Shown here: positions 1-8,453 of the stretch, piece after piece
Layout of the letters: every line of letters begins with the position of its first letter
Position numbering within the stretch: the first letter of the stretch is position 1
Assembly: GCA_000004985.1 (NCBI GenBank)
Contig: GG739069.1
From: Naegleria gruberi
Taxonomy: Eukaryota
Strand: one strand, 5' to 3'
Length of the DNA stretch: 8,453 nt
Notes under the pieces: generated by a model
Databases searched by the model: none
The model's input: only the letters and a program-made list of their open reading frames with translations
What the model was told of the DNA's origin: nothing
Made by a program: the position numbers and the translations under genes

Positions 1-739
1 TAGAAAACAGTTGGTACATGTTATCCAACAGATTTTCCATATTATTCAATTCTTTCATAAATCTGGCCGAAACTAGAGTCTTGTGATGGACTAAACTAGC
101 ATAAAATCTATTTCTCAAGGTTTTTTCGTTATCCAAATAAAAATTAATAAGGGTATGATAATAGCTTGCTTTGATTTGATTTCCTTCTGCGACACAAGTC
201 ATAAACATCAAGTGACAAGAGGCACCCCAATAAAACTGTGTGATATGATCCACAGAAAGTGCTGCAATTTCACATTCTGCCCTTCTCAAAATATAATCCA
301 CATAGTCCAATTCACCCAACAGTTGTGAACTCAATGTCAAAATACCCAAATAGAAAGCATAAATACATCTCAATTCCCCCTTTGATTTTATCCATCCATC
401 ATTATGAAGCAATTCAACATCTTCCCCTCTCTCAAAACAATGCAAGTAATTATTCACAAAATGTACAAGTTTAGCCCTCTCAATCAGAGGATGAATACCA
501 CAAATGAAAGTAAAGTACAACTCAATCACCCTCATAGGTGTAATTGGAGAGGGTTTAGTTGTAAATATTCCAGCACTACCATTTGCATTATTGGTCATTG
601 TAATATCGGTACTACTCTGATCATCGGAAGTCTTTTTCTTAATAGTATCATCGGATGATGATGACGATGACTTGGATTTATCCTTTGATTTTAATGAATA
701 TAATTCAGAACCCTTTCCTCTCTTTTGTGGTGTATTGTA
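1..739 (-). CDS. Zn(2)-Cys(6) (Gal4-type) fungal transcription factor, exon 3, partial (continues past left edge)
   Basis: The reverse complement of 1-739 is open for 246 codons with no stop (YNTPQKRGKGSELYSLKSKDKSKSSSSSSDDTIKKK...VIELYFTFICGIHPLIERAKLVHF...NMENLLDNMYQLFS). It starts directly after a TTATAG acceptor whose TAG is in frame. The IELYF..HP.. stretch resembles the start of the fungal-specific TF middle domain. The ORF track misses it only because there is no stop inside the window. The track's plus-strand ORFs 259-474 and 404-658 are antisense shadows of this exon. Confidence 0.85.
653..670 (-). repeat. Imperfect trinucleotide tract encoding Ser6 within exon 3
   Basis: The plus strand reads GGATGATGATGACGATGA. 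On the coding strand this is TCA TCG TCA TCA TCA TCC (Ser x6). Confidence 0.6.
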
Positions 740-872
740 CTATAAGAAGTTTTCCATTCACATATTCATATGAATAGTGTAATTATTATTGTAATTAAAT
801 ATATCGAAATATGAAGTGATAATATTTTGATGATGGGGGTATAAGGAATATTTTCAATTAATTGAAACGTAC
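740..872 (-). other. Spliceosomal intron 2 of the Zn(2)-Cys(6) gene (133 nt, phase 0)
   Basis: A GTACGT donor follows ...GSECV immediately, and unspliced reading hits TAA at the fifth codon. The interior is A/T-rich. The TTATAG acceptor ends at 740. Splicing gives ...SECV|YNTPQKRG, the usual C.Y....KRG continuation after a zinc cluster. Confidence 0.7.
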
Positions 873-929
873 AACACATTCCGATCCGACTGCTAAACAC
901 TTTGAGCATCCACTTAATTTCTTATCACA
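873..929 (-). CDS. Zn(2)-Cys(6) transcription factor, exon 2 (second half of the zinc cluster)
   Basis: These 57 nt encode CDKKLSGCSKCLAVGSECV. Joined to exon 1 they give ACIRCRKLHKKCDKKLSGCSKCLAVGSECVY, which is C-X2-C-X6-C-X6-C-X2-C-X6-C. This aligns position for position with the Gal4 cluster as I remember it ([31 protein letters not shown]). Confidence 0.85.
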
Positions 930-978
930 CTATTTTGATGAAGTTTTTAAATGAAAGTTTTAAAAGATGAAAACAAAC
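930..978 (-). other. Spliceosomal intron 1 of the Zn(2)-Cys(6) gene (49 nt, phase 0)
   Basis: The donor is GTTTGT (starts at 978) and the acceptor AAAATAG ends at 930. I count 10 G/C in 49 nt. Unspliced reading gives the ORF-track tail VCFHLLKLSFKNFIKIV* and breaks the cysteine spacing. Splicing places Cys3 (TGT, 929-927) exactly 6 residues after Cys2. Confidence 0.85.
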
Positions 979-1134
979 CTTTTTATGCAATTTTCTACAT
1001 CGAATACATGCAATGGGATGGCAATCTCCACTAAACGTCAATTGATTCATTTGCTGATGTTCCTGTTGTTTGTCATTACTTTCACTATTATCGGGAGGAG
1101 ATGATGATGATGAAGGATCCACTTGATGAAACAT
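979..1134 (-). CDS. Zn(2)-Cys(6) transcription factor, exon 1 (start codon and first two cysteines)
   Basis: The ATG at 1134-1132 sits in an A-run context (AAAAAAATG), with an in-frame TAA five codons upstream. The 52 codons read MFHQVDPSSSSSPPDNSESNDKQQEHQQMNQLTFSGDCHPIACIRCRKLHKK and end at AAG|GTTTGT. Confidence 0.9.
1099..1113 (-). repeat. (TCA)4 TCT trinucleotide tract encoding Ser5 in exon 1
   Basis: The plus strand reads AGATGATGATGATGA. On the coding strand this is TCA TCA TCA TCA TCT. Confidence 0.6.
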
Positions 1135-1465: not shown

Positions 1466-1777
1466 ATGATTGGTGCTGGTGGTATGCCAGGTGCCGGTGC
1501 CGATGCTGCTGGTTCTTCCGATGATGCTCCTCCATCTGGTGCTCAACCAAAACTCTCTCGACTCTTACAAATTGAACAAGATTTTGCTGCAAAAGATGAC
1601 CTTGGTATTATTTCCGAAATACATGATAGTAACCAAAAGATTCTGTTGATATCATGCCACACCTTGAATGCGGATCATTCTCTCAACACGGATCATGTAA
1701 TAGTCAAGATTGATACCATCATTAGATCATACAAGATCCGAAATCCCAATACCACAATCAAGGCACCTCTCATGATT
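1466..1777 (+). CDS. 5' end of an unidentified protein-coding gene (G/A/P-rich N-terminus), truncated by the N gap
   Basis: The ATG at 1466 is in the context GAAAAAAATG, the same style as the ATGs at 1134 and 6959. The frame is open for 104 codons up to the N run. All three frames have stops in the ~120 nt upstream. The protein starts MIGAGGMPGAGADAAGSSDDAPPSGAQPK. I count 50 G/C in the 90 nt of 1466-1555, well above the surrounding sequence. I recognise no family, and internal introns cannot be excluded. Confidence 0.55.
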
Positions 1778-4700
1778 NNNNNNNNNNNNNNNNNNNNNNN
1801 NNNNNNNNNNNNNNNNNNNNNNNNNNNNNNNNNNNNNNNNNNNNNNNNNNNNNNNNNNNNNNNNNNNNNNNNNNNNNNNNNNNNNNNNNNNNNNNNNNNN
1901 NNNNNNNNNNNNNNNNNNNNNNNNNNNNNNNNNNNNNNNNNNNNNNNNNNNNNNNNNNNNNNNNNNNNNNNNNNNNNNNNNNNNNNNNNNNNNNNNNNNN
2001 NNNNNNNNNNNNNNNNNNNNNNNNNNNNNNNNNNNNNNNNNNNNNNNNNNNNNNNNNNNNNNNNNNNNNNNNNNNNNNNNNNNNNNNNNNNNNNNNNNNN
2101 NNNNNNNNNNNNNNNNNNNNNNNNNNNNNNNNNNNNNNNNNNNNNNNNNNNNNNNNNNNNNNNNNNNNNNNNNNNNNNNNNNNNNNNNNNNNNNNNNNNN
2201 NNNNNNNNNNNNNNNNNNNNNNNNNNNNNNNNNNNNNNNNNNNNNNNNNNNNNNNNNNNNNNNNNNNNNNNNNNNNNNNNNNNNNNNNNNNNNNNNNNNN
2301 NNNNNNNNNNNNNNNNNNNNNNNNNNNNNNNNNNNNNNNNNNNNNNNNNNNNNNNNNNNNNNNNNNNNNNNNNNNNNNNNNNNNNNNNNNNNNNNNNNNN
2401 NNNNNNNNNNNNNNNNNNNNNNNNNNNNNNNNNNNNNNNNNNNNNNNNNNNNNNNNNNNNNNNNNNNNNNNNNNNNNNNNNNNNNNNNNNNNNNNNNNNN
2501 NNNNNNNNNNNNNNNNNNNNNNNNNNNNNNNNNNNNNNNNNNNNNNNNNNNNNNNNNNNNNNNNNNNNNNNNNNNNNNNNNNNNNNNNNNNNNNNNNNNN
2601 NNNNNNNNNNNNNNNNNNNNNNNNNNNNNNNNNNNNNNNNNNNNNNNNNNNNNNNNNNNNNNNNNNNNNNNNNNNNNNNNNNNNNNNNNNNNNNNNNNNN
2701 NNNNNNNNNNNNNNNNNNNNNNNNNNNNNNNNNNNNNNNNNNNNNNNNNNNNNNNNNNNNNNNNNNNNNNNNNNNNNNNNNNNNNNNNNNNNNNNNNNNN
2801 NNNNNNNNNNNNNNNNNNNNNNNNNNNNNNNNNNNNNNNNNNNNNNNNNNNNNNNNNNNNNNNNNNNNNNNNNNNNNNNNNNNNNNNNNNNNNNNNNNNN
2901 NNNNNNNNNNNNNNNNNNNNNNNNNNNNNNNNNNNNNNNNNNNNNNNNNNNNNNNNNNNNNNNNNNNNNNNNNNNNNNNNNNNNNNNNNNNNNNNNNNNN
3001 NNNNNNNNNNNNNNNNNNNNNNNNNNNNNNNNNNNNNNNNNNNNNNNNNNNNNNNNNNNNNNNNNNNNNNNNNNNNNNNNNNNNNNNNNNNNNNNNNNNN
3101 NNNNNNNNNNNNNNNNNNNNNNNNNNNNNNNNNNNNNNNNNNNNNNNNNNNNNNNNNNNNNNNNNNNNNNNNNNNNNNNNNNNNNNNNNNNNNNNNNNNN
3201 NNNNNNNNNNNNNNNNNNNNNNNNNNNNNNNNNNNNNNNNNNNNNNNNNNNNNNNNNNNNNNNNNNNNNNNNNNNNNNNNNNNNNNNNNNNNNNNNNNNN
3301 NNNNNNNNNNNNNNNNNNNNNNNNNNNNNNNNNNNNNNNNNNNNNNNNNNNNNNNNNNNNNNNNNNNNNNNNNNNNNNNNNNNNNNNNNNNNNNNNNNNN
3401 NNNNNNNNNNNNNNNNNNNNNNNNNNNNNNNNNNNNNNNNNNNNNNNNNNNNNNNNNNNNNNNNNNNNNNNNNNNNNNNNNNNNNNNNNNNNNNNNNNNN
3501 NNNNNNNNNNNNNNNNNNNNNNNNNNNNNNNNNNNNNNNNNNNNNNNNNNNNNNNNNNNNNNNNNNNNNNNNNNNNNNNNNNNNNNNNNNNNNNNNNNNN
3601 NNNNNNNNNNNNNNNNNNNNNNNNNNNNNNNNNNNNNNNNNNNNNNNNNNNNNNNNNNNNNNNNNNNNNNNNNNNNNNNNNNNNNNNNNNNNNNNNNNNN
3701 NNNNNNNNNNNNNNNNNNNNNNNNNNNNNNNNNNNNNNNNNNNNNNNNNNNNNNNNNNNNNNNNNNNNNNNNNNNNNNNNNNNNNNNNNNNNNNNNNNNN
3801 NNNNNNNNNNNNNNNNNNNNNNNNNNNNNNNNNNNNNNNNNNNNNNNNNNNNNNNNNNNNNNNNNNNNNNNNNNNNNNNNNNNNNNNNNNNNNNNNNNNN
3901 NNNNNNNNNNNNNNNNNNNNNNNNNNNNNNNNNNNNNNNNNNNNNNNNNNNNNNNNNNNNNNNNNNNNNNNNNNNNNNNNNNNNNNNNNNNNNNNNNNNN
4001 NNNNNNNNNNNNNNNNNNNNNNNNNNNNNNNNNNNNNNNNNNNNNNNNNNNNNNNNNNNNNNNNNNNNNNNNNNNNNNNNNNNNNNNNNNNNNNNNNNNN
4101 NNNNNNNNNNNNNNNNNNNNNNNNNNNNNNNNNNNNNNNNNNNNNNNNNNNNNNNNNNNNNNNNNNNNNNNNNNNNNNNNNNNNNNNNNNNNNNNNNNNN
4201 NNNNNNNNNNNNNNNNNNNNNNNNNNNNNNNNNNNNNNNNNNNNNNNNNNNNNNNNNNNNNNNNNNNNNNNNNNNNNNNNNNNNNNNNNNNNNNNNNNNN
4301 NNNNNNNNNNNNNNNNNNNNNNNNNNNNNNNNNNNNNNNNNNNNNNNNNNNNNNNNNNNNNNNNNNNNNNNNNNNNNNNNNNNNNNNNNNNNNNNNNNNN
4401 NNNNNNNNNNNNNNNNNNNNNNNNNNNNNNNNNNNNNNNNNNNNNNNNNNNNNNNNNNNNNNNNNNNNNNNNNNNNNNNNNNNNNNNNNNNNNNNNNNNN
4501 NNNNNNNNNNNNNNNNNNNNNNNNNNNNNNNNNNNNNNNNNNNNNNNNNNNNNNNNNNNNNNNNNNNNNNNNNNNNNNNNNNNNNNNNNNNNNNNNNNNN
4601 NNNNNNNNNNNNNNNNNNNNNNNNNNNNNNNNNNNNNNNNNNNNNNNNNNNNNNNNNNNNNNNNNNNNNNNNNNNNNNNNNNNNNNNNNNNNNNNNNNNN

Positions 4701-5892
4701 NNNNNNNNNNNNNNNNNNNNNNNNNNNNNNNNNNNNNNNNNNNNNNNNNNNNNNNNNNNNNNNNNNNNNNNNNNNNNNNNNNNNNNNNNNNNNNNNNNNN
4801 NNNNNNNNNNNNNNNNNNNNNNNNNNNNNNNNNNNNNNNNNNNNNNNNNNNNNNNNNNNNNNNNNNNNNNNNNNNNNNNNNNNNNNNNNNNNNNNNNNNN
4901 NNNNNNNNNNNNNNNNNNNNNNNNNNNNNNNNNNNNNNNNNNNNNNNNNNNNNNNNNNNNNNNNNNNNNNNNNNNNNNNNNNNNNNNNNNNNNNNNNNNN
5001 NNNNNNNNNNNNNNNNNNNNNNNNNNNNNNNNNNNNNNNNNNNNNNNNNNNNNNNNNNNNNNNNNNNNNNNNNNNNNNNNNNNNNNNNNNNNNNNNNNNN
5101 NNNNNNNNNNNNNNNNNNNNNNNNNNNNNNNNNNNNNNNNNNNNNNNNNNNNNNNNNNNNNNNNNNNNNNNNNNNNNNNNNNNNNNNNNNNNNNNNNNNN
5201 NNNNNNNNNNNNNNNNNNNNNNNNNNNNNNNNNNNNNNNNNNNNNNNNNNNNNNNNNNNNNNNNNNNNNNNNNNNNNNNNNNNNNNNNNNNNNNNNNNNN
5301 NNNNNNNNNNNNNNNNNNNNNNNNNNNNNNNNNNNNNNNNNNNNNNNNNNNNNNNNNNNNNNNNNNNNNNNNNNNNNNNNNNNNNNNNNNNNNNNNNNNN
5401 NNNNNNNNNNNNNNNNNNNNNNNNNNNNNNNNNNNNNNNNNNNNNNNNNNNNNNNNNNNNNNNNNNNNNNNNNNNNNNNNNNNNNNNNNNNNNNNNNNNN
5501 NNNNNNNNNNNNNNNNNNNNNNNNNNNNNNNNNNNNNNNNNNNNNNNNNNNNNNNNNNNNNNNNNNNNNNNNNNNNNNNNNNNNNNNNNNNNNNNNNNNN
5601 NNNNNNNNNNNNNNNNNNNNNNNNNNNNNNNNNNNNNNNNNNNNNNNNNNNNNNNNNNNNNNNNNNNNNNNNNNNNNNNNNNNNNNNNNNNNNNNNNNNN
5701 NNNNNNNNNNNNNNNNNNNNNNNNNNNNNNNNNNNNNNNNNNNNNNNNNNNNNNNNNNNNNNNNNNNNNNNNNNNNNNNNNNNNNNNNNNNNNNNNNNNN
5801 NNNNNNNNNNNNNNNNNNNNNNNNNNNNNNNNNNNNNNNNNNNNNNNNNNNNNNNNNNNNNNNNNNNNNNNNNNNNNNNNNNNNNNNNNNNN
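1778..5892. other. Run of 4,115 N (assembly gap or masked sequence)
   Basis: The N run is uninterrupted in the sequence as given. The X-filled ORFs 1466-6058 (+) and 1770-5936 (-) in the track are artefacts of it. Confidence 0.99.
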
Positions 5893-5893
5893 G

Positions 5894-6616
5894 CTAATAG
5901 GTGATATGAGAACACAATCAAAAATCCGTCAAGCACTTCACCACGTCGAACAGGGAGCTGCTGAATCTTATACTCCTCTCCTCAAATATCGTCAAGAAGA
6001 TTTACGTGTTTATCAAGTTGCTAAGAAATTGCATACCATGTGGCAAGAAAGCGACTAGGAAAAGCCAATTACATATGATGATATCGAATTTGCCTTCAAC
6101 TTGTACAAAGTACATTGCGAAAATATGAAAATGATGAAGAGTGAATACTCTCTTGAATATACCAAGTTGATGAAGGTTCTCATTAATATTGTTTTGGTAA
6201 ACAGAGAATATTGCAAGGTTGCCAAACAAGTTCTCAATGAATCAACAAAGAAATACAAGAAGGATATTTCATCAATTGAATCGGCAATTGAATCTAAATT
6301 GAAGGAATATGAATCAACTCAAAGTAATCAAGACAAACTTTTAATGCTCAGACTCTCCTCATACACCATTCAATCTATTTCTAAATTAGACTCTGATTTG
6401 GATGCTTATGAAAATATGGTTGTCCAATGTGTGAAATTGATGTATCCAGAAAGATGTATTATCTATGATTTGGACCTTTGTAAAAAACTTCTTTACATTT
6501 GCCGTACTACAACAGCTTCTTCCCTTTTGGAAAAGAGCAAGGAAATTATGGATGTTTCCTCAGTTCACTATGATAGAGAAAAACTCTTCCAACAAGCTAT
6601 TATTAGGGACAATTAA
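5894..6616 (+). CDS. 3' end of an unidentified protein-coding gene, with one in-frame TAG at 6056-6058
   Basis: One frame is open from the gap edge to TAA 6614-6616, apart from a single TAG (...KKLHTMWQESD*EKPITYDDIEFAFNLYKV...). The 185 codons after the TAG are K/E/L-rich and partly coiled-coil-like (SIESAIESKLKEYESTQSNQDKLL). The track's start at 6101 is a TTG called under bacterial rules. I recognise no family. This could be one gene with an in-frame intron or read-through, or a gene disrupted by a nonsense change. Confidence 0.6.
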
Positions 6617-6630
6617 GGTCATCAAATGTA

Positions 6631-6673
6631 GCCCGTCTAGCTCAGTCGGTAGAGCGTCAGACTGTTAATCTGC
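6631..6673 (+). pseudogene. tRNA-like 5' half (anticodon GUU, Asn-type), lacking variable loop, T arm and 3' acceptor strand
   Basis: The sequence parses as GCCCGTC TA GCTC AGTCGGTA GAGC G TCAGA CTGTTAA TCTGC. That is the acceptor 5' strand, a canonical D arm and box A (TAGCTCAGTCGGTAGAGC), and an anticodon stem of 4 bp plus one U:C. The 7-nt loop has U33, GUU and A37. What follows is CAACAAATTTTGAAATGAAAAAAAG, with no GGTTCGA-type T arm and no GACGGGC acceptor complement. Confidence 0.7.
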
Positions 6674-6679
6674 AACAAA

Positions 6680-6683
6680 TTTT
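6680..6683 (+). terminator. Possible minimal Pol III terminator (TTTT) after the tRNA-like half
   Basis: Four Ts lie 7 nt after the anticodon-stem remnant. The run is short and could be chance in AT-rich DNA. Confidence 0.2.
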
Positions 6684-6689
6684 GAAATG

Positions 6690-6696
6690 AAAAAAA
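6690..6696 (-). terminator. Pol III terminator (T7) of the 5S rRNA gene
   Basis: The minus strand reads ...GGTGCTGTAGTC TTTTTTT C. The oligo-T run lies immediately at the 5S 3' end. Confidence 0.8.
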
Positions 6697-6814
6697 GACT
6701 ACAGCACCACAGGTTCCCAAGTTGTCTCCAACCTCAGTACTGATGTGGCTCGACGATGCTTAACTTCTCAAATCGGACGGGATGAGGTGCATTCATCGTG
6801 ATATGGCCGTAGCC
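6696..6814 (-). rRNA. 5S ribosomal RNA gene
   Basis: The minus strand reads GGCTACGGCCATATCACGATGAATGCACCTCATCCCGTCCGATTTGAGAAGTTAAGCATCGTCGAGCCACATCAGTACTGAGGTTGGAGACAACTTGGGAACCTGTGGTGCTGTAGTCT (119 nt). It carries the conserved eukaryotic 5S blocks CGGCCATA, CCCGTCCGAT, GAAGTTAAGC, AGTACT, GGGAA and GGTGCTGTAG. The 5' and 3' ends pair as helix I (GGCTACGG with CTGTAGTC, allowing G-U). A T7 run follows. The exact ends are good to 1-2 nt. Confidence 0.92.
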
Positions 6815-6958
6815 ATTCATTACCTCAAAATGTGAAATATCAGCCCAATTCCAAGTTCTAACAAGGGAAACCTTAGATGCTCACATGACCAACACTTGAG
6901 TTTCTAAGGCTATGAAATCCAATTCAGCAAATTATTAATTTACAAAAATCAAAAAAAA

Positions 6959-7387
6959 ATGTATAATCACTGTCATCAGCACAATGATACGTTTGATCGT
7001 GGTGATGATTGGAGCGAGAATTGTCCCGATTTTGCTCTCCTCTCTCCAACAAACAGTTCATTCAAAAATCTCTCCTCCGATATTATTTGTTATATTGTTT
7101 TTCAATATTTGGATTACAAAACAATTACAAGTTGTTTATTATTGAATAAGGAATATTATGGAAAGATTGCAAATAATAGATTTCTTTTTATTAATATGTA
7201 TAACGAGTTATTTATTAATAAGAGAATTGCATTATCATCAGTGCAACTACCAGTACTATTTAATTGTGTATCTTTCAGTTCAGCAAATAATGAGTTATCC
7301 AGTAATTGTGAGAGAATGCTTTTGCAATCTGGGAGAATGACAGATGAAAAATTGGAATGTATTAGAAAAAAGTGGCAAGAATCAATT
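6959..7387 (+). CDS. F-box-like protein segment (first part of a putative F-box/LRR gene), ends at an in-frame TAG
   Basis: The ATG at 6959 follows an A9 run. The 143 codons include FKNLSSDIICYIVFQYLDYKTITSCLLLNKEYYGKIANNRFLF. This fits a degenerate F-box pattern (L..[DE][IL][IL]..I...L.....[IL]....L.NK..Y.......[FL][FW]), with the usual Pro and Trp replaced. TAG at 7388-7390 follows, and the same frame then reopens. Confidence 0.65.
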
Positions 7388-7390
7388 TAG

Positions 7391-7715
7391 AAAATGACTC
7401 AACGCAGCACTAGTATTAAGAATGAAAAACAACTACTGTTGAATATTATCAAAAAGATTATCAAAGACAGATTGGATATTTTAAAATTCTTTAAAAATGA
7501 ATTGAAAAGTGCACAAATAGGAGATGGAAAAATGAGACCAGCAGTTGAACTGGTCAAGGAAACACAGGACATTATTGAAAAATTGAAAACTTTTGAAGAA
7601 TTATCGTTGAGCTATCCAAGTTCTAATTACTTTCATGAATCGTTTAATAATTATATAATAGAACAACAGGAAGCTTACGAACCAATTGAGTTGAATAATA
7701 TTATTTCCATACGAG
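7391..7715 (+). CDS. Middle segment of the putative F-box/LRR gene (same frame as 6959-7387)
   Basis: The frame is open for 108 codons immediately after the TAG (KMTQRSTSIKNEKQLLLNIIKKIIKDRLDILKFFKNELKSAQ...EPIELNNIISIR). It ends at CGAG|GTTAGT. The track calls it as a separate ORF from the ATG at 7394, only 3 nt after the stop. That is too close for an independent eukaryotic gene. Confidence 0.55.
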
Positions 7716-7760
7716 GTTAGTTTCTTCTTCTTCTTTCAAGTTTGAAAAAATTTTATGTAG
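7716..7760 (+). other. Spliceosomal intron (45 nt, phase 1) in the F-box/LRR gene
   Basis: The donor is GTTAGT, followed by the pyrimidine tract TTTCTTCTTCTTCTTTC, and the acceptor is ATGTAG ending at 7760. I count 11 G/C in 45 nt. The in-frame TAG at 7718-7720 lies inside the donor. Splicing gives ...IISIR-E-NTKSTNDYV... Confidence 0.7.
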
Positions 7761-8453
7761 AAAATACCAAGTCAACCAATGATTATGTACGAAATTCCTG
7801 TTATACTTCTATTTCAATACTAAAATATTTCAAAAATCTTAAATTTCTCTATCTAGCTGGATATTGTGATTTTCAAGAGCCAGTTAAATTGAACAACTTG
7901 AAAGTATTAATTATAAGAACAGGAGTAATGGAAAATTCCATGTTACAATCAATTCTTAACTGCTCATTCCCACAATTGAAACATTTAGAATTATGGTTAG
8001 GGTCACCCTGTCAAATAAGAAGTAAAATGATCGACCTGTCACATTACAATAATGATATTACAGAAAAAAATTTAACAGAACTGCTTTCAGAATCAGATAA
8101 TGGAAAGTATCCAACATTAGAATATTTTGGTCTGAGAAATACTTATAATATTCCACAACTCTTACCACTTATTATGAAATCAAATATTGCAAAAAGAGTT
8201 AGAGTATTGGATTTATCATTATCAGGTTCAATAACAGAAAATGATGCTCTATTTATTGCAGAGCAAATCCAATTACAGAGAAAAGAATTCACATTGTTAG
8301 AATTTGTTGATTTGAGATATAATAATATTCAACTTGAAAATAATCCGAATAGGGATATCGTGATTCAACAAATTGAAGAGGAATTCAACAAAATAGGAAT
8401 TGCAGTTGATGTATCAAAATCTGATTATTGTAGAATGCAGAACATGAAATTGT
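7761..8453 (+). CDS. Leucine-rich-repeat C-terminal region of the F-box/LRR gene, partial (continues past right edge)
   Basis: I checked 230 consecutive codons one by one and found no stop: NTKSTNDYVRNSCYTSISILKYFKNLKFLYLAGYCDFQEPVKLNNLKVLIIRTGVMENSMLQSILNCSFPQLKHLELWLGSP...YPTLEYFGLRNTYNIPQLLPLIMKSNIAKRVRVLDLSLSGSITENDALFIAEQI...LLEFVDLRYNNIQLENN...IGIAVDVSKSDY. LxxLxLxx(N/G) repeats recur. The ORF track omits it because it has no stop in the window. Confidence 0.8.

What the first reader, a model, noticed from the sequence alone, without database searches (positions are those of the whole stretch)
6056..7720. Every interruption of the plus-strand reading frames is TAG, never TAA or TGA, in an AT-rich genome
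Reading 5894-6616 and 6959-8453 in their frames gives exactly three internal stops, at 6056, 7388 and 7718. All three are TAG. The only clear terminal stop in the window is TAA (6614). One TAG (7718) lies inside a strong GTTAGT donor. The pattern fits TAG as a splice-site by-product (donor GTTAG, acceptor YAG). It is also what a UAG-to-sense reassignment or UAG-specific read-through would produce. As I recall, UAG-decoding nuclear codes exist in some ciliates and have been reported in an aphelid relative of fungi. I know of none in typical fungi, so the prior is low. The adjacent tRNA-like fragment has anticodon GUU, not CUA, and gives that idea no support.
Basis: inference. Interest (0 to 1): 0.4.

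Follow-up and report, generated by a model that had tools for sequence, protein, structure and literature searches.

The report
Nonsense mutations in duplicated Naegleria pseudogenes
The three in-frame TAG codons are real, but two are ordinary nonsense mutations in recently duplicated, decaying gene copies of the amoeba Naegleria gruberi and the third lies inside a short intron, so nothing here points to an altered genetic code.

Summary
The only in-frame stops in 5894-6613 and 6959-8452 are TAGs at 6056, 7388 and 7718.

The organism is Naegleria gruberi NEG-M (Heterolobosea), not a fungus. The window is an entire 8453-bp unplaced scaffold.

- **TAG 6056.** Window 5919-6601 is a 683-bp internal fragment, 680/683 identical to an intact 369-aa N. 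gruberi gene on a 530-kb scaffold. That intact gene has TCG (Ser) where the window has TAG. Homology stops abruptly at both ends, so the "terminal" TAA at 6614 is not a real gene end.
- **TAG 7388.** The F-box/LRR-like gene exists as at least four roughly 96-100% identical copies on different scaffolds, and every one is annotated only as fragments. The copy on a 696-kb scaffold reads Lys where the window has TAG, and carries its own 2-nt frameshift.
- **TAG 7718.** It lies in a 45-nt phase-1 GT-AG intron at essentially the same site (one residue apart) as an intron in the N. lovaniensis ortholog.

The two coding TAGs replace different residues (Ser and Lys), and the intact parent gene has no in-frame TAG. 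Two TAGs out of two nonsense events has p≈0.07. This is ordinary pseudogene decay plus an intron. UAG recoding is not supported.

The parts
5919..6601 (+). Duplicated internal fragment (about codons 119-345 of 369) of the N. gruberi gene EFC46284.1 (P0007). Both the N- and C-terminal coding parts are missing.
   Evidence: 680/683 identical, without gaps, to L006 613-1295, which encodes P0007 exactly. Homology ends abruptly at both edges.
6056..6058 (+). In-frame TAG, a nonsense substitution of Ser codon TCG (C to A at 6057)
   Evidence: The intact copy has TCG/Ser. Orthologs have TCT or TCC (Ser) in two further Naegleria DNA loci, Ser in the N. lovaniensis protein, and Ala in Willaertia.
6614..6616 (+). 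TAA, the first stop after the 3' breakpoint of the fragment. It is not the gene's own terminator.
   Evidence: The intact gene continues '...AIVICKESEQDSKILSHPYELERPIL' and ends with its own TAA.
6631..6672 (+). tRNA-Asn(GUU)-like 5' half only (truncated)
   Evidence: ARAGORN finds no tRNA. The Rfam tRNA score is 25 bits, below the 29-bit threshold, and only the 5' half matches.
6696..6814 (-). Complete 5S rRNA gene
   Evidence: Rfam RF00001, 105.4 bits, E=5.9e-23, model positions 1-120.
6959..7715 (+). Exon 1 of an F-box/LRR-like gene copy (gene B), interrupted by TAG 7388
   Evidence: Colinear with N. lovaniensis P0001 across the TAG. The JGI model EFC35682 (P0014, 143 aa) stops at this TAG.
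7388..7390 (+). In-frame TAG, a nonsense substitution of a Lys codon (AAG to TAG inferred)
   Evidence: Paralog P0015 (EFC47818, 696-kb scaffold, 96% identical) reads WQESI-K-KMNQRS where the window reads WQESI-TAG-KMTQRS.
7716..7760 (+). 45-nt phase-1 GT-AG intron (GTTAGT...ATGTAG) containing the in-frame TAG at 7718-7720
   Evidence: It lies at essentially the same site (one residue apart) as the 63-nt phase-1 intron of the N. lovaniensis ortholog. Removing it restores colinearity with that ortholog. The JGI model P0161 uses the same donor with a later acceptor at 7856. The intron and its TAG are retained in the independent contig L008.
7761..8453 (+). Exon 2 of gene B (LRR part). Relative to other copies, two single bases are missing after 8436 and after 8444, so the family's TGA stop (8445-8447) is out of frame.
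   Evidence: L008 is 888/900 identical and ends ...CRIAEH-TGA. P0013, from another NEG-M scaffold, ends the same way.

Best explanation
The window is a small unplaced scaffold of Naegleria gruberi NEG-M, built from recently duplicated, multi-copy DNA whose reading frames are decaying. 'Gene A' (5919-6601) is an internal fragment copied from an intact 369-codon gene located elsewhere in the genome. Since the copy was made it has picked up three substitutions, and one of them turned Ser TCG into TAG. 'Gene B' (6959 to the window end) is one of at least four near-identical copies of an F-box/LRR-like gene. Different copies carry different disabling lesions, and this copy has an AAG(Lys)-to-TAG change at 7388. 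The third TAG (7718) is simply part of a GTTAGT intron donor and is spliced out. Shown here: the parent and paralog sequences, the residues at the TAG positions, the breakpoints, the copy number in the annotation, and the intron conservation. Inferred: that the copies are untranslated pseudogenes, and that the exact ancestral codon at 7388 was AAG.
For: Organism and scaffold identity: P0005, P0014 and P0161 are N. gruberi models EFC35681-35683, and the contig length is 8453. TAG 6056: the intact copy P0007 (EFC46284, 530-kb scaffold) reads WQESD-S-EKPI. Its DNA (L006) is 680/683 identical to the window, with TCG against TAG, and identity ends abruptly at 5918/5919 and 6601/6602. The intact gene lies next to Rad21/Rec8, as in N. 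fowleri and another Naegleria, whereas the window copy is followed by a tRNA half and a 5S gene. TAG 7388: paralog P0015 has Lys there and its own 2-nt frameshift. The truncated products P0005 and P0014 each occur on two different scaffolds. All N. gruberi models of this family are fragments of 142-246 aa. Copy-to-copy differences are mostly non-synonymous by my reading of the alignment (about 6 non-synonymous to 3 synonymous), including loss of a Trp that is conserved in the aligned Naegleria/Willaertia homologs. TAG 7718: conserved intron site. Chance: TAG makes up 26% of possible nonsense changes, so p≈0.07 for two of two.
Against: Apart from one TAG each, both frames are long and clean, which could look like selection. 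That is expected for very young copies (0.4-1.3% divergence). I could not read the NEG-M DNA of the other copies, only their annotated proteins and near-identical metagenome contigs. No expression data were available. The other N. gruberi relative found (P0018) is a more distant family member, so no intact full-length copy of this particular subfamily was seen.
Confidence: 0.86

Rival explanations
1. UAG is decoded as an amino acid, or efficiently read through, in N. gruberi, and these genes are functional.
For: All interruptions are TAG. Both coding TAGs sit inside otherwise open frames that are colinear with homologs.
Against: The intact, conserved parent of gene A uses TCG and has no in-frame TAG over 369 codons. 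The two TAGs correspond to different residues, Ser and Lys. Both loci are extra copies with further lesions: truncation at both ends, frame loss at the 3' end, and a frameshift in a sister copy. In the sister species N. lovaniensis, 3 of 7 annotated genes in L005 end at TAG. No tRNA with a CUA anticodon is present in the window. No paper found reports a Naegleria code variant. From background knowledge, N. gruberi is annotated with the standard code.
Confidence: 0.02
2. The TAGs at 6056 and 7388 are sequencing or assembly errors on a low-quality small scaffold.
For: The scaffold is 8.4 kb with a 4.1-kb gap. Its last 20 bases lack two single bases relative to other copies.
Against: The same truncated products are annotated on second, separate scaffolds: P0005 also on a 14,084-bp scaffold, and P0014 also on a 33,919-bp scaffold. 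The TAGs were therefore assembled more than once. Both TAGs lie far from the scaffold and gap edges.
Confidence: 0.07
3. The small scaffolds are divergent alleles (haplotigs) of main-scaffold loci rather than extra paralogous copies, so the TAGs are heterozygous null alleles.
For: Near-identical sequences exist on both large and small scaffolds.
Against: The gene A fragment shares only 683 bp with its parent locus and has different flanks, so it cannot be an allele of that locus. Gene B products occur on four scaffolds, more than two alleles would give.
Confidence: 0.05

Closest known systems
Duplicated (non-processed) pseudogenes and gene-fragment duplicates in eukaryotic genomes
   Same: There is a near-identical intact parent in the same genome. 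The copy is truncated with sharp homology breakpoints, it has lost the parental gene neighbourhood, and it carries a premature stop. Sister copies carry different lesions.
   Different: The gene A fragment lies beside a tRNA half and a complete 5S rRNA gene. The whole block appears on several small scaffolds, and the mechanism of duplication (segmental, transposon-mediated or repair-mediated) was not determined.
Nuclear UAG/UAR stop-codon reassignments (ciliates, Amoeboaphelidium, Iotanema, Blastocrithidia)
   Same: Only the superficial signature is shared: in-frame TAG inside frames that are homologous to real proteins.
   Different: In those organisms TAG occurs at conserved positions of intact single-copy genes and stands for one amino acid. 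Here the intact gene lacks TAG, the TAG-aligned residues differ (Ser, Lys), and the carriers are degenerate copies.
Short spliceosomal GT-AG introns of Naegleria
   Same: 7716-7760 has GT...AG ends and is phase 1. Its site matches the N. lovaniensis intron to within one residue, and the N. gruberi paralog in L009 reads GTAAGT followed by an in-frame TAG at the corresponding place. In-frame stops just after the donor are seen in all three.
   Different: Nothing notable. The JGI model chose a later acceptor (7856), while homology favours 7760.

Membership tests
Nuclear UAG-to-sense reassignment or programmed UAG read-through | In-frame TAG in intact, conserved, functional genes of the organism | tested here: not met
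   The intact N. gruberi gene P0007 (369 aa, colinear end to end with orthologs) has TCG, not TAG, and no internal stop. The TAG carriers are a truncated fragment and a decaying multi-copy gene.
Nuclear UAG-to-sense reassignment or programmed UAG read-through | TAG positions align consistently with one amino acid in homologs | tested here: not met
   6056 aligns to Ser in the 99.6%-identical parent. 7388 aligns to Lys in the 96%-identical paralog.
Nuclear UAG-to-sense reassignment or programmed UAG read-through | A tRNA with anticodon CUA, and/or an altered eRF1 | not testable with these tools
Nuclear UAG-to-sense reassignment or programmed UAG read-through | TAG not used, or strongly avoided, as a terminator | tested here: inconclusive
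   The N. gruberi-like contigs L006, L008 and L009 show five TAA terminators (two in L006, three in L009) and one TGA (L008). The two TAG-ended ORF calls in L009 are not genuine termini: one runs into an intron and the other is shorter than its homologs. In N. lovaniensis, 3 of 7 annotated genes end in TAG.
Duplicated pseudogene or gene fragment | A near-identical intact parent elsewhere in the same genome | tested here: met
   P0007/EFC46284 lies on a 530-kb NEG-M scaffold. DNA identity via L006 is 680/683.
Duplicated pseudogene or gene fragment | Truncation, or a disabling lesion, relative to the parent | tested here: met
   About 118 N-terminal and 24 C-terminal codons are missing, and there is a TAG at 6056. 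Gene B has TAG 7388 plus two missing bases near its end.
Duplicated pseudogene or gene fragment | Located outside the parental gene neighbourhood | tested here: met
   The parent and its orthologs are followed by Rad21/Rec8. The window copy is followed by a tRNA half, a 5S rRNA gene and gene B.
Duplicated pseudogene or gene fragment | No functional protein is made from the copy | not testable with these tools
   No transcript or peptide data were available.
Spliceosomal GT-AG intron (for TAG 7718) | GT...AG boundaries, with removal restoring frame and homology | tested here: met
   7716 GTTAGT ... ATGTAG 7760 is 45 nt. The alignment to P0001 improves once it is removed.
Spliceosomal GT-AG intron (for TAG 7718) | Intron position conserved in orthologs | tested here: met
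   N. lovaniensis L005 has a 63-nt phase-1 intron after ...SLFC, one residue from the window's ...SIR site. The N. gruberi paralog in L009 shows GTAAGT at the corresponding place.
Spliceosomal GT-AG intron (for TAG 7718) | Spliced transcript observed | not testable with these tools
   No RNA data were available. The JGI model P0161 does splice from the same donor.

The most novel reading that the evidence does not exclude
N. gruberi tolerates these premature UAGs through low-level natural suppression or near-cognate read-through. On this reading the multi-copy F-box/LRR genes (and perhaps the gene A fragment) still yield some full-length product, and the TAG-only pattern reflects selection for the leakiest or best-suppressed stop rather than chance.
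Probability: 0.02. Interest if true: 0.5.

Novelty: already known. Interest (0 to 1): 0.06.

Why it matters
It matters mainly as a caution. In-frame stops on small unplaced scaffolds of draft eukaryotic assemblies can mimic the signature of a genetic-code change. The quickest test is to look for an intact paralog or parent in the same genome. Here that test shows ordinary sense codons (Ser TCG, Lys) at the TAG positions. Nothing here changes what is known about Naegleria translation. As a by-product, three JGI gene models on this scaffold (EFC35681-35683) turn out to be pieces of pseudogenes.

Tried and rejected
- **Hidden introns around 6056 and 7388.** The only in-frame GT...AG candidate I could see by reading the sequence is 6017-6058 (GTTGCT...TAG, 42 nt). 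It would delete 'VAKKLHTMWQESD', which is conserved in all orthologs and identical in the parent. Near 7388 the GT...AG spans are only 19-32 nt. Rejected.
- **Treating 1466 to 6616 as one 1,700-codon gene across the N gap.** Rejected. The orthologs are 360-396 aa, and homology starts only at 5919.
- **Looking for the missing C-terminal 24 codons of gene A elsewhere in the window** (tblastn). Not found.
- **Exact-product look-ups of window ORFs and N. gruberi models**. All returned nothing, so NEG-M DNA of the other copies could not be read.
- **Pfam scan of the three plus-strand products.** No hit reached its family's gathering score.
- **Repeat search within the window.** Only short, chance-level matches.
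- **Literature searches for Naegleria stop-codon read-through, UAG or stop-codon usage**. Nothing relevant turned up. A search on 5S genes and heterozygosity was also unhelpful.
- **'TAG equals Ser' idea.** The first homolog alignments put Ser opposite both TAGs, which briefly suggested this. It was rejected once the 96%-identical paralog showed Lys at 7388. The N. lovaniensis alignment there sits next to a 6-residue gap and is unreliable.

Full report
**1. The observation**

Translating 5894-6616 gives one internal stop, TAG at 6056, before the TAA at 6614. Translating 6959-8452 gives two, TAG at 7388 and TAG at 7718. No TAA or TGA is in frame, although both are common in the other frames. 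The stated coordinates and codons are therefore correct.

The pattern is not rare by chance. Of all single-base changes that would create a stop in these 711 sense codons, 25-26% give TAG, 50-53% TAA and 21-24% TGA. Three of three would have p≈0.02 if the three were independent events of one kind. One of them is part of an intron donor, which leaves two of two, p≈0.07.

**2. What the DNA is**

The window is not fungal.

- The 163-aa product of 6125-6613 is identical to 'predicted protein [Naegleria gruberi]' (P0005).
- The 143-aa ORF at 6959-7387 is the N. gruberi model EFC35682 (P0014).
- The partial model EFC35683 (P0161) sits on a contig of exactly 8453 bp.

The window is therefore a complete small unplaced scaffold of N. 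gruberi NEG-M (Heterolobosea), carrying models EFC35681-35683 and a 4114-N assembly gap at 1779-5892.

Between the two plus-strand frames lie a truncated tRNA-Asn(GUU) 5' half (6631-6672) and a complete 5S rRNA gene on the minus strand (6696-6814, 105 bits).

**3. TAG 6056**

Orthologs from N. fowleri, N. lovaniensis, an uncultured Naegleria and Willaertia are 360-396 aa long. They are colinear across the TAG, which aligns to Ser, Ser, Ser and Ala. Where ortholog DNA was read, the Ser codons are TCT (N. fowleri) and TCC (the uncultured Naegleria contigs).

The 90% cluster of P0005 also holds P0007 (EFC46284.1), a 369-aa N. gruberi protein on a 530-kb scaffold. P0007 reads ...HTMWQESD-S-EKPITYDD....

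A contig that encodes P0007 exactly (L006) matches window 5919-6601 at 680 of 683 bases with no gaps. The three differences are:

| Window position | Window | Intact gene (L006) | Effect |
|---|---|---|---|
| 6057 | TAG | TCG | nonsense in place of Ser |
| 6085 | C (ATC) | T (ATT) | synonymous (Ile) |
| 6538 | AGC | AGA | Ser in place of Arg |

Identity collapses immediately outside 5919 and 6601. The last 24 codons of the intact gene are nowhere else in the window.

The intact gene and its orthologs are followed by Rad21/Rec8. The window copy is not.

'Gene A' is therefore a very recent copy of an internal gene fragment. It has no start and no native end, and one of its three substitutions is a nonsense change. 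The TAA at 6614 is just the first stop met after the breakpoint. The ORF starting at 1466 is a different gene that runs into the gap.

**4. TAG 7388**

The frame from 6959 to 8453 is colinear with N. lovaniensis P0001 (F-box-annotated, 542 aa; BLASTP E=3e-72) on both sides of the TAG, so it is one gene. The TAG falls in a variable-length linker beside a 6-residue gap, which makes that alignment uninformative about the residue.

An exhaustive phmmer search found four N. gruberi-level matches:

| Protein | Identity to window | Source | Note |
|---|---|---|---|
| P0014 | 100% | EFC35682 on this scaffold; EFC36078 on a 33.9-kb scaffold | 143 aa, stops at TAG 7388 |
| P0015 | 96% | EFC47818 on a 696-kb scaffold | 142 aa, spans the TAG position |
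| P0013 | 96% | EFC35942 on the 14-kb scaffold, which also carries a second copy of P0005 | 184 aa |
| P0012 | 98% | a metagenome contig | 173 aa |

P0015 spans the site and reads WQESI-K-KMNQRS where the window has WQESI-TAG-KMTQRS. The TAG therefore replaces Lys; a single AAG-to-TAG step is inferred.

P0015 itself enters from another frame (MSYPVIVR|MLLQ). This corresponds to a 2-nt GA deletion relative to the window, so that copy carries an independent frameshift.

Contig L008 matches window 7554-8451 at 888/900 and ends ...CRIAEH-TGA. The window lacks two single bases in its last 20 nt and so misses that TGA stop. By my reading of that alignment, the ten substitutions between the two copies comprise about six non-synonymous changes, three synonymous changes and one intronic change. 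One of them removes a Trp that is conserved in the aligned Naegleria/Willaertia homologs. This suggests relaxed constraint, although the numbers are small.

Every N. gruberi model of this subfamily is a fragment of 142-246 aa. A more distant N. gruberi relative, P0018, lies on an 820-kb scaffold.

Gene B is therefore one member of a recently amplified, decaying gene family, and its TAG is a nonsense mutation.

**5. TAG 7718**

It lies in GTTAGT, at the start of a 45-nt phase-1 intron (7716-7760, ending ATGTAG).

- N. lovaniensis has a 63-nt phase-1 intron at essentially the same site, one residue away.
- The N. gruberi paralog in L009 also runs into GTAAGT followed by an in-frame TAG.
- Removing 7716-7760 restores colinearity with P0001.
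- The JGI model P0161 uses the same donor with a later acceptor at 7856. Homology of 7761-7856 to the ortholog favours the 7760 acceptor.

Under either acceptor the TAG is intronic.

**6. Recoding hypothesis**

All the features that could be tested fail.

- The intact conserved gene carries TCG, not TAG.
- The two coding TAGs stand for different residues, Ser and Lys.
- The carriers are truncated or multiply damaged extra copies.
- The same truncated products occur on separate scaffolds, so these are real mutations rather than a leaky code acting on essential genes.
- In N. lovaniensis, 3 of 7 annotated genes in one locus end at TAG.
- No tRNA-CUA is present in the window.
- No paper in the library reports a Naegleria code variant.

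From background knowledge, N. gruberi is annotated with the standard code. I could not run a genome-wide code inference, tRNA scan or eRF1 inspection.

**7. Verdict**

The most likely account (confidence about 0.86) is ordinary nonsense mutations in young duplicated pseudogene copies plus one intronic TAG. The 'TAG-only' pattern is a small-number coincidence. Interest is low.

Noticed in passing
window 5919-6958: A mosaic of unrelated pieces lies side by side: an internal 683-bp gene fragment, 29 nt of unrelated sequence, a 42-nt tRNA-Asn 5' half, then a complete 5S rRNA gene on the opposite strand. The neighbouring gene pair (gene A fragment plus gene B copy) is also annotated on a 14,084-bp scaffold. 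This could be a 5S-associated repeat unit, or a fragment-capturing mobile or repair event.
   Followed up: partly
window 6041-6058 and 7373-7390: Both coding TAGs are preceded by the same peptide, WQES (WQESD-TAG and WQESI-TAG). The intact parent has WQESDS and the paralog has WQESIK, so the shared motif predates the mutations and looks coincidental.
   Followed up: yes
window 8436-8447: Relative to contig L008 and to model P0013, the window lacks one base after 8436 and one after 8444. This puts the family's TGA stop (8445-8447) out of frame. It is either a further lesion or low-quality sequence at the scaffold end.
   Followed up: partly
window 1-1134 (minus strand): A Zn2Cys6-type zinc-cluster gene (…CIRCRKLHKK|CDKKLSGCSKCLAVGSEC…) with two short introns (about 925-981 and 743-866). 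Its third exon is open to the window start.
   Followed up: partly
window 1466-1778 (plus strand): An ORF starting MIGAGGMPGAGADAAG… runs into the 4114-N assembly gap. It has no Pfam hit and is unrelated to the fragment after the gap.
   Followed up: partly
window 7716-7856: The JGI model EFC35683 (P0161) splices 7716 to 7856 (141 nt). Homology to N. lovaniensis favours a 45-nt intron ending at 7760, so the annotated model probably skips 32 real codons.
   Followed up: yes
L006, L008, L009 (ENA metagenome ERZ929261): One environmental metagenome contains contigs that are 98.7-100% identical to N. gruberi NEG-M genes, including a copy of the decaying gene B family. The family is therefore present outside the laboratory strain.
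   Followed up: no
P0007 / EFC46284.1: The intact parent gene is named 'methyl-accepting chemotaxis protein' in NCBI. It has no Pfam domain on record, and its orthologs are annotated only as hypothetical or uncharacterized proteins. The name looks like an annotation artefact.
   Followed up: no
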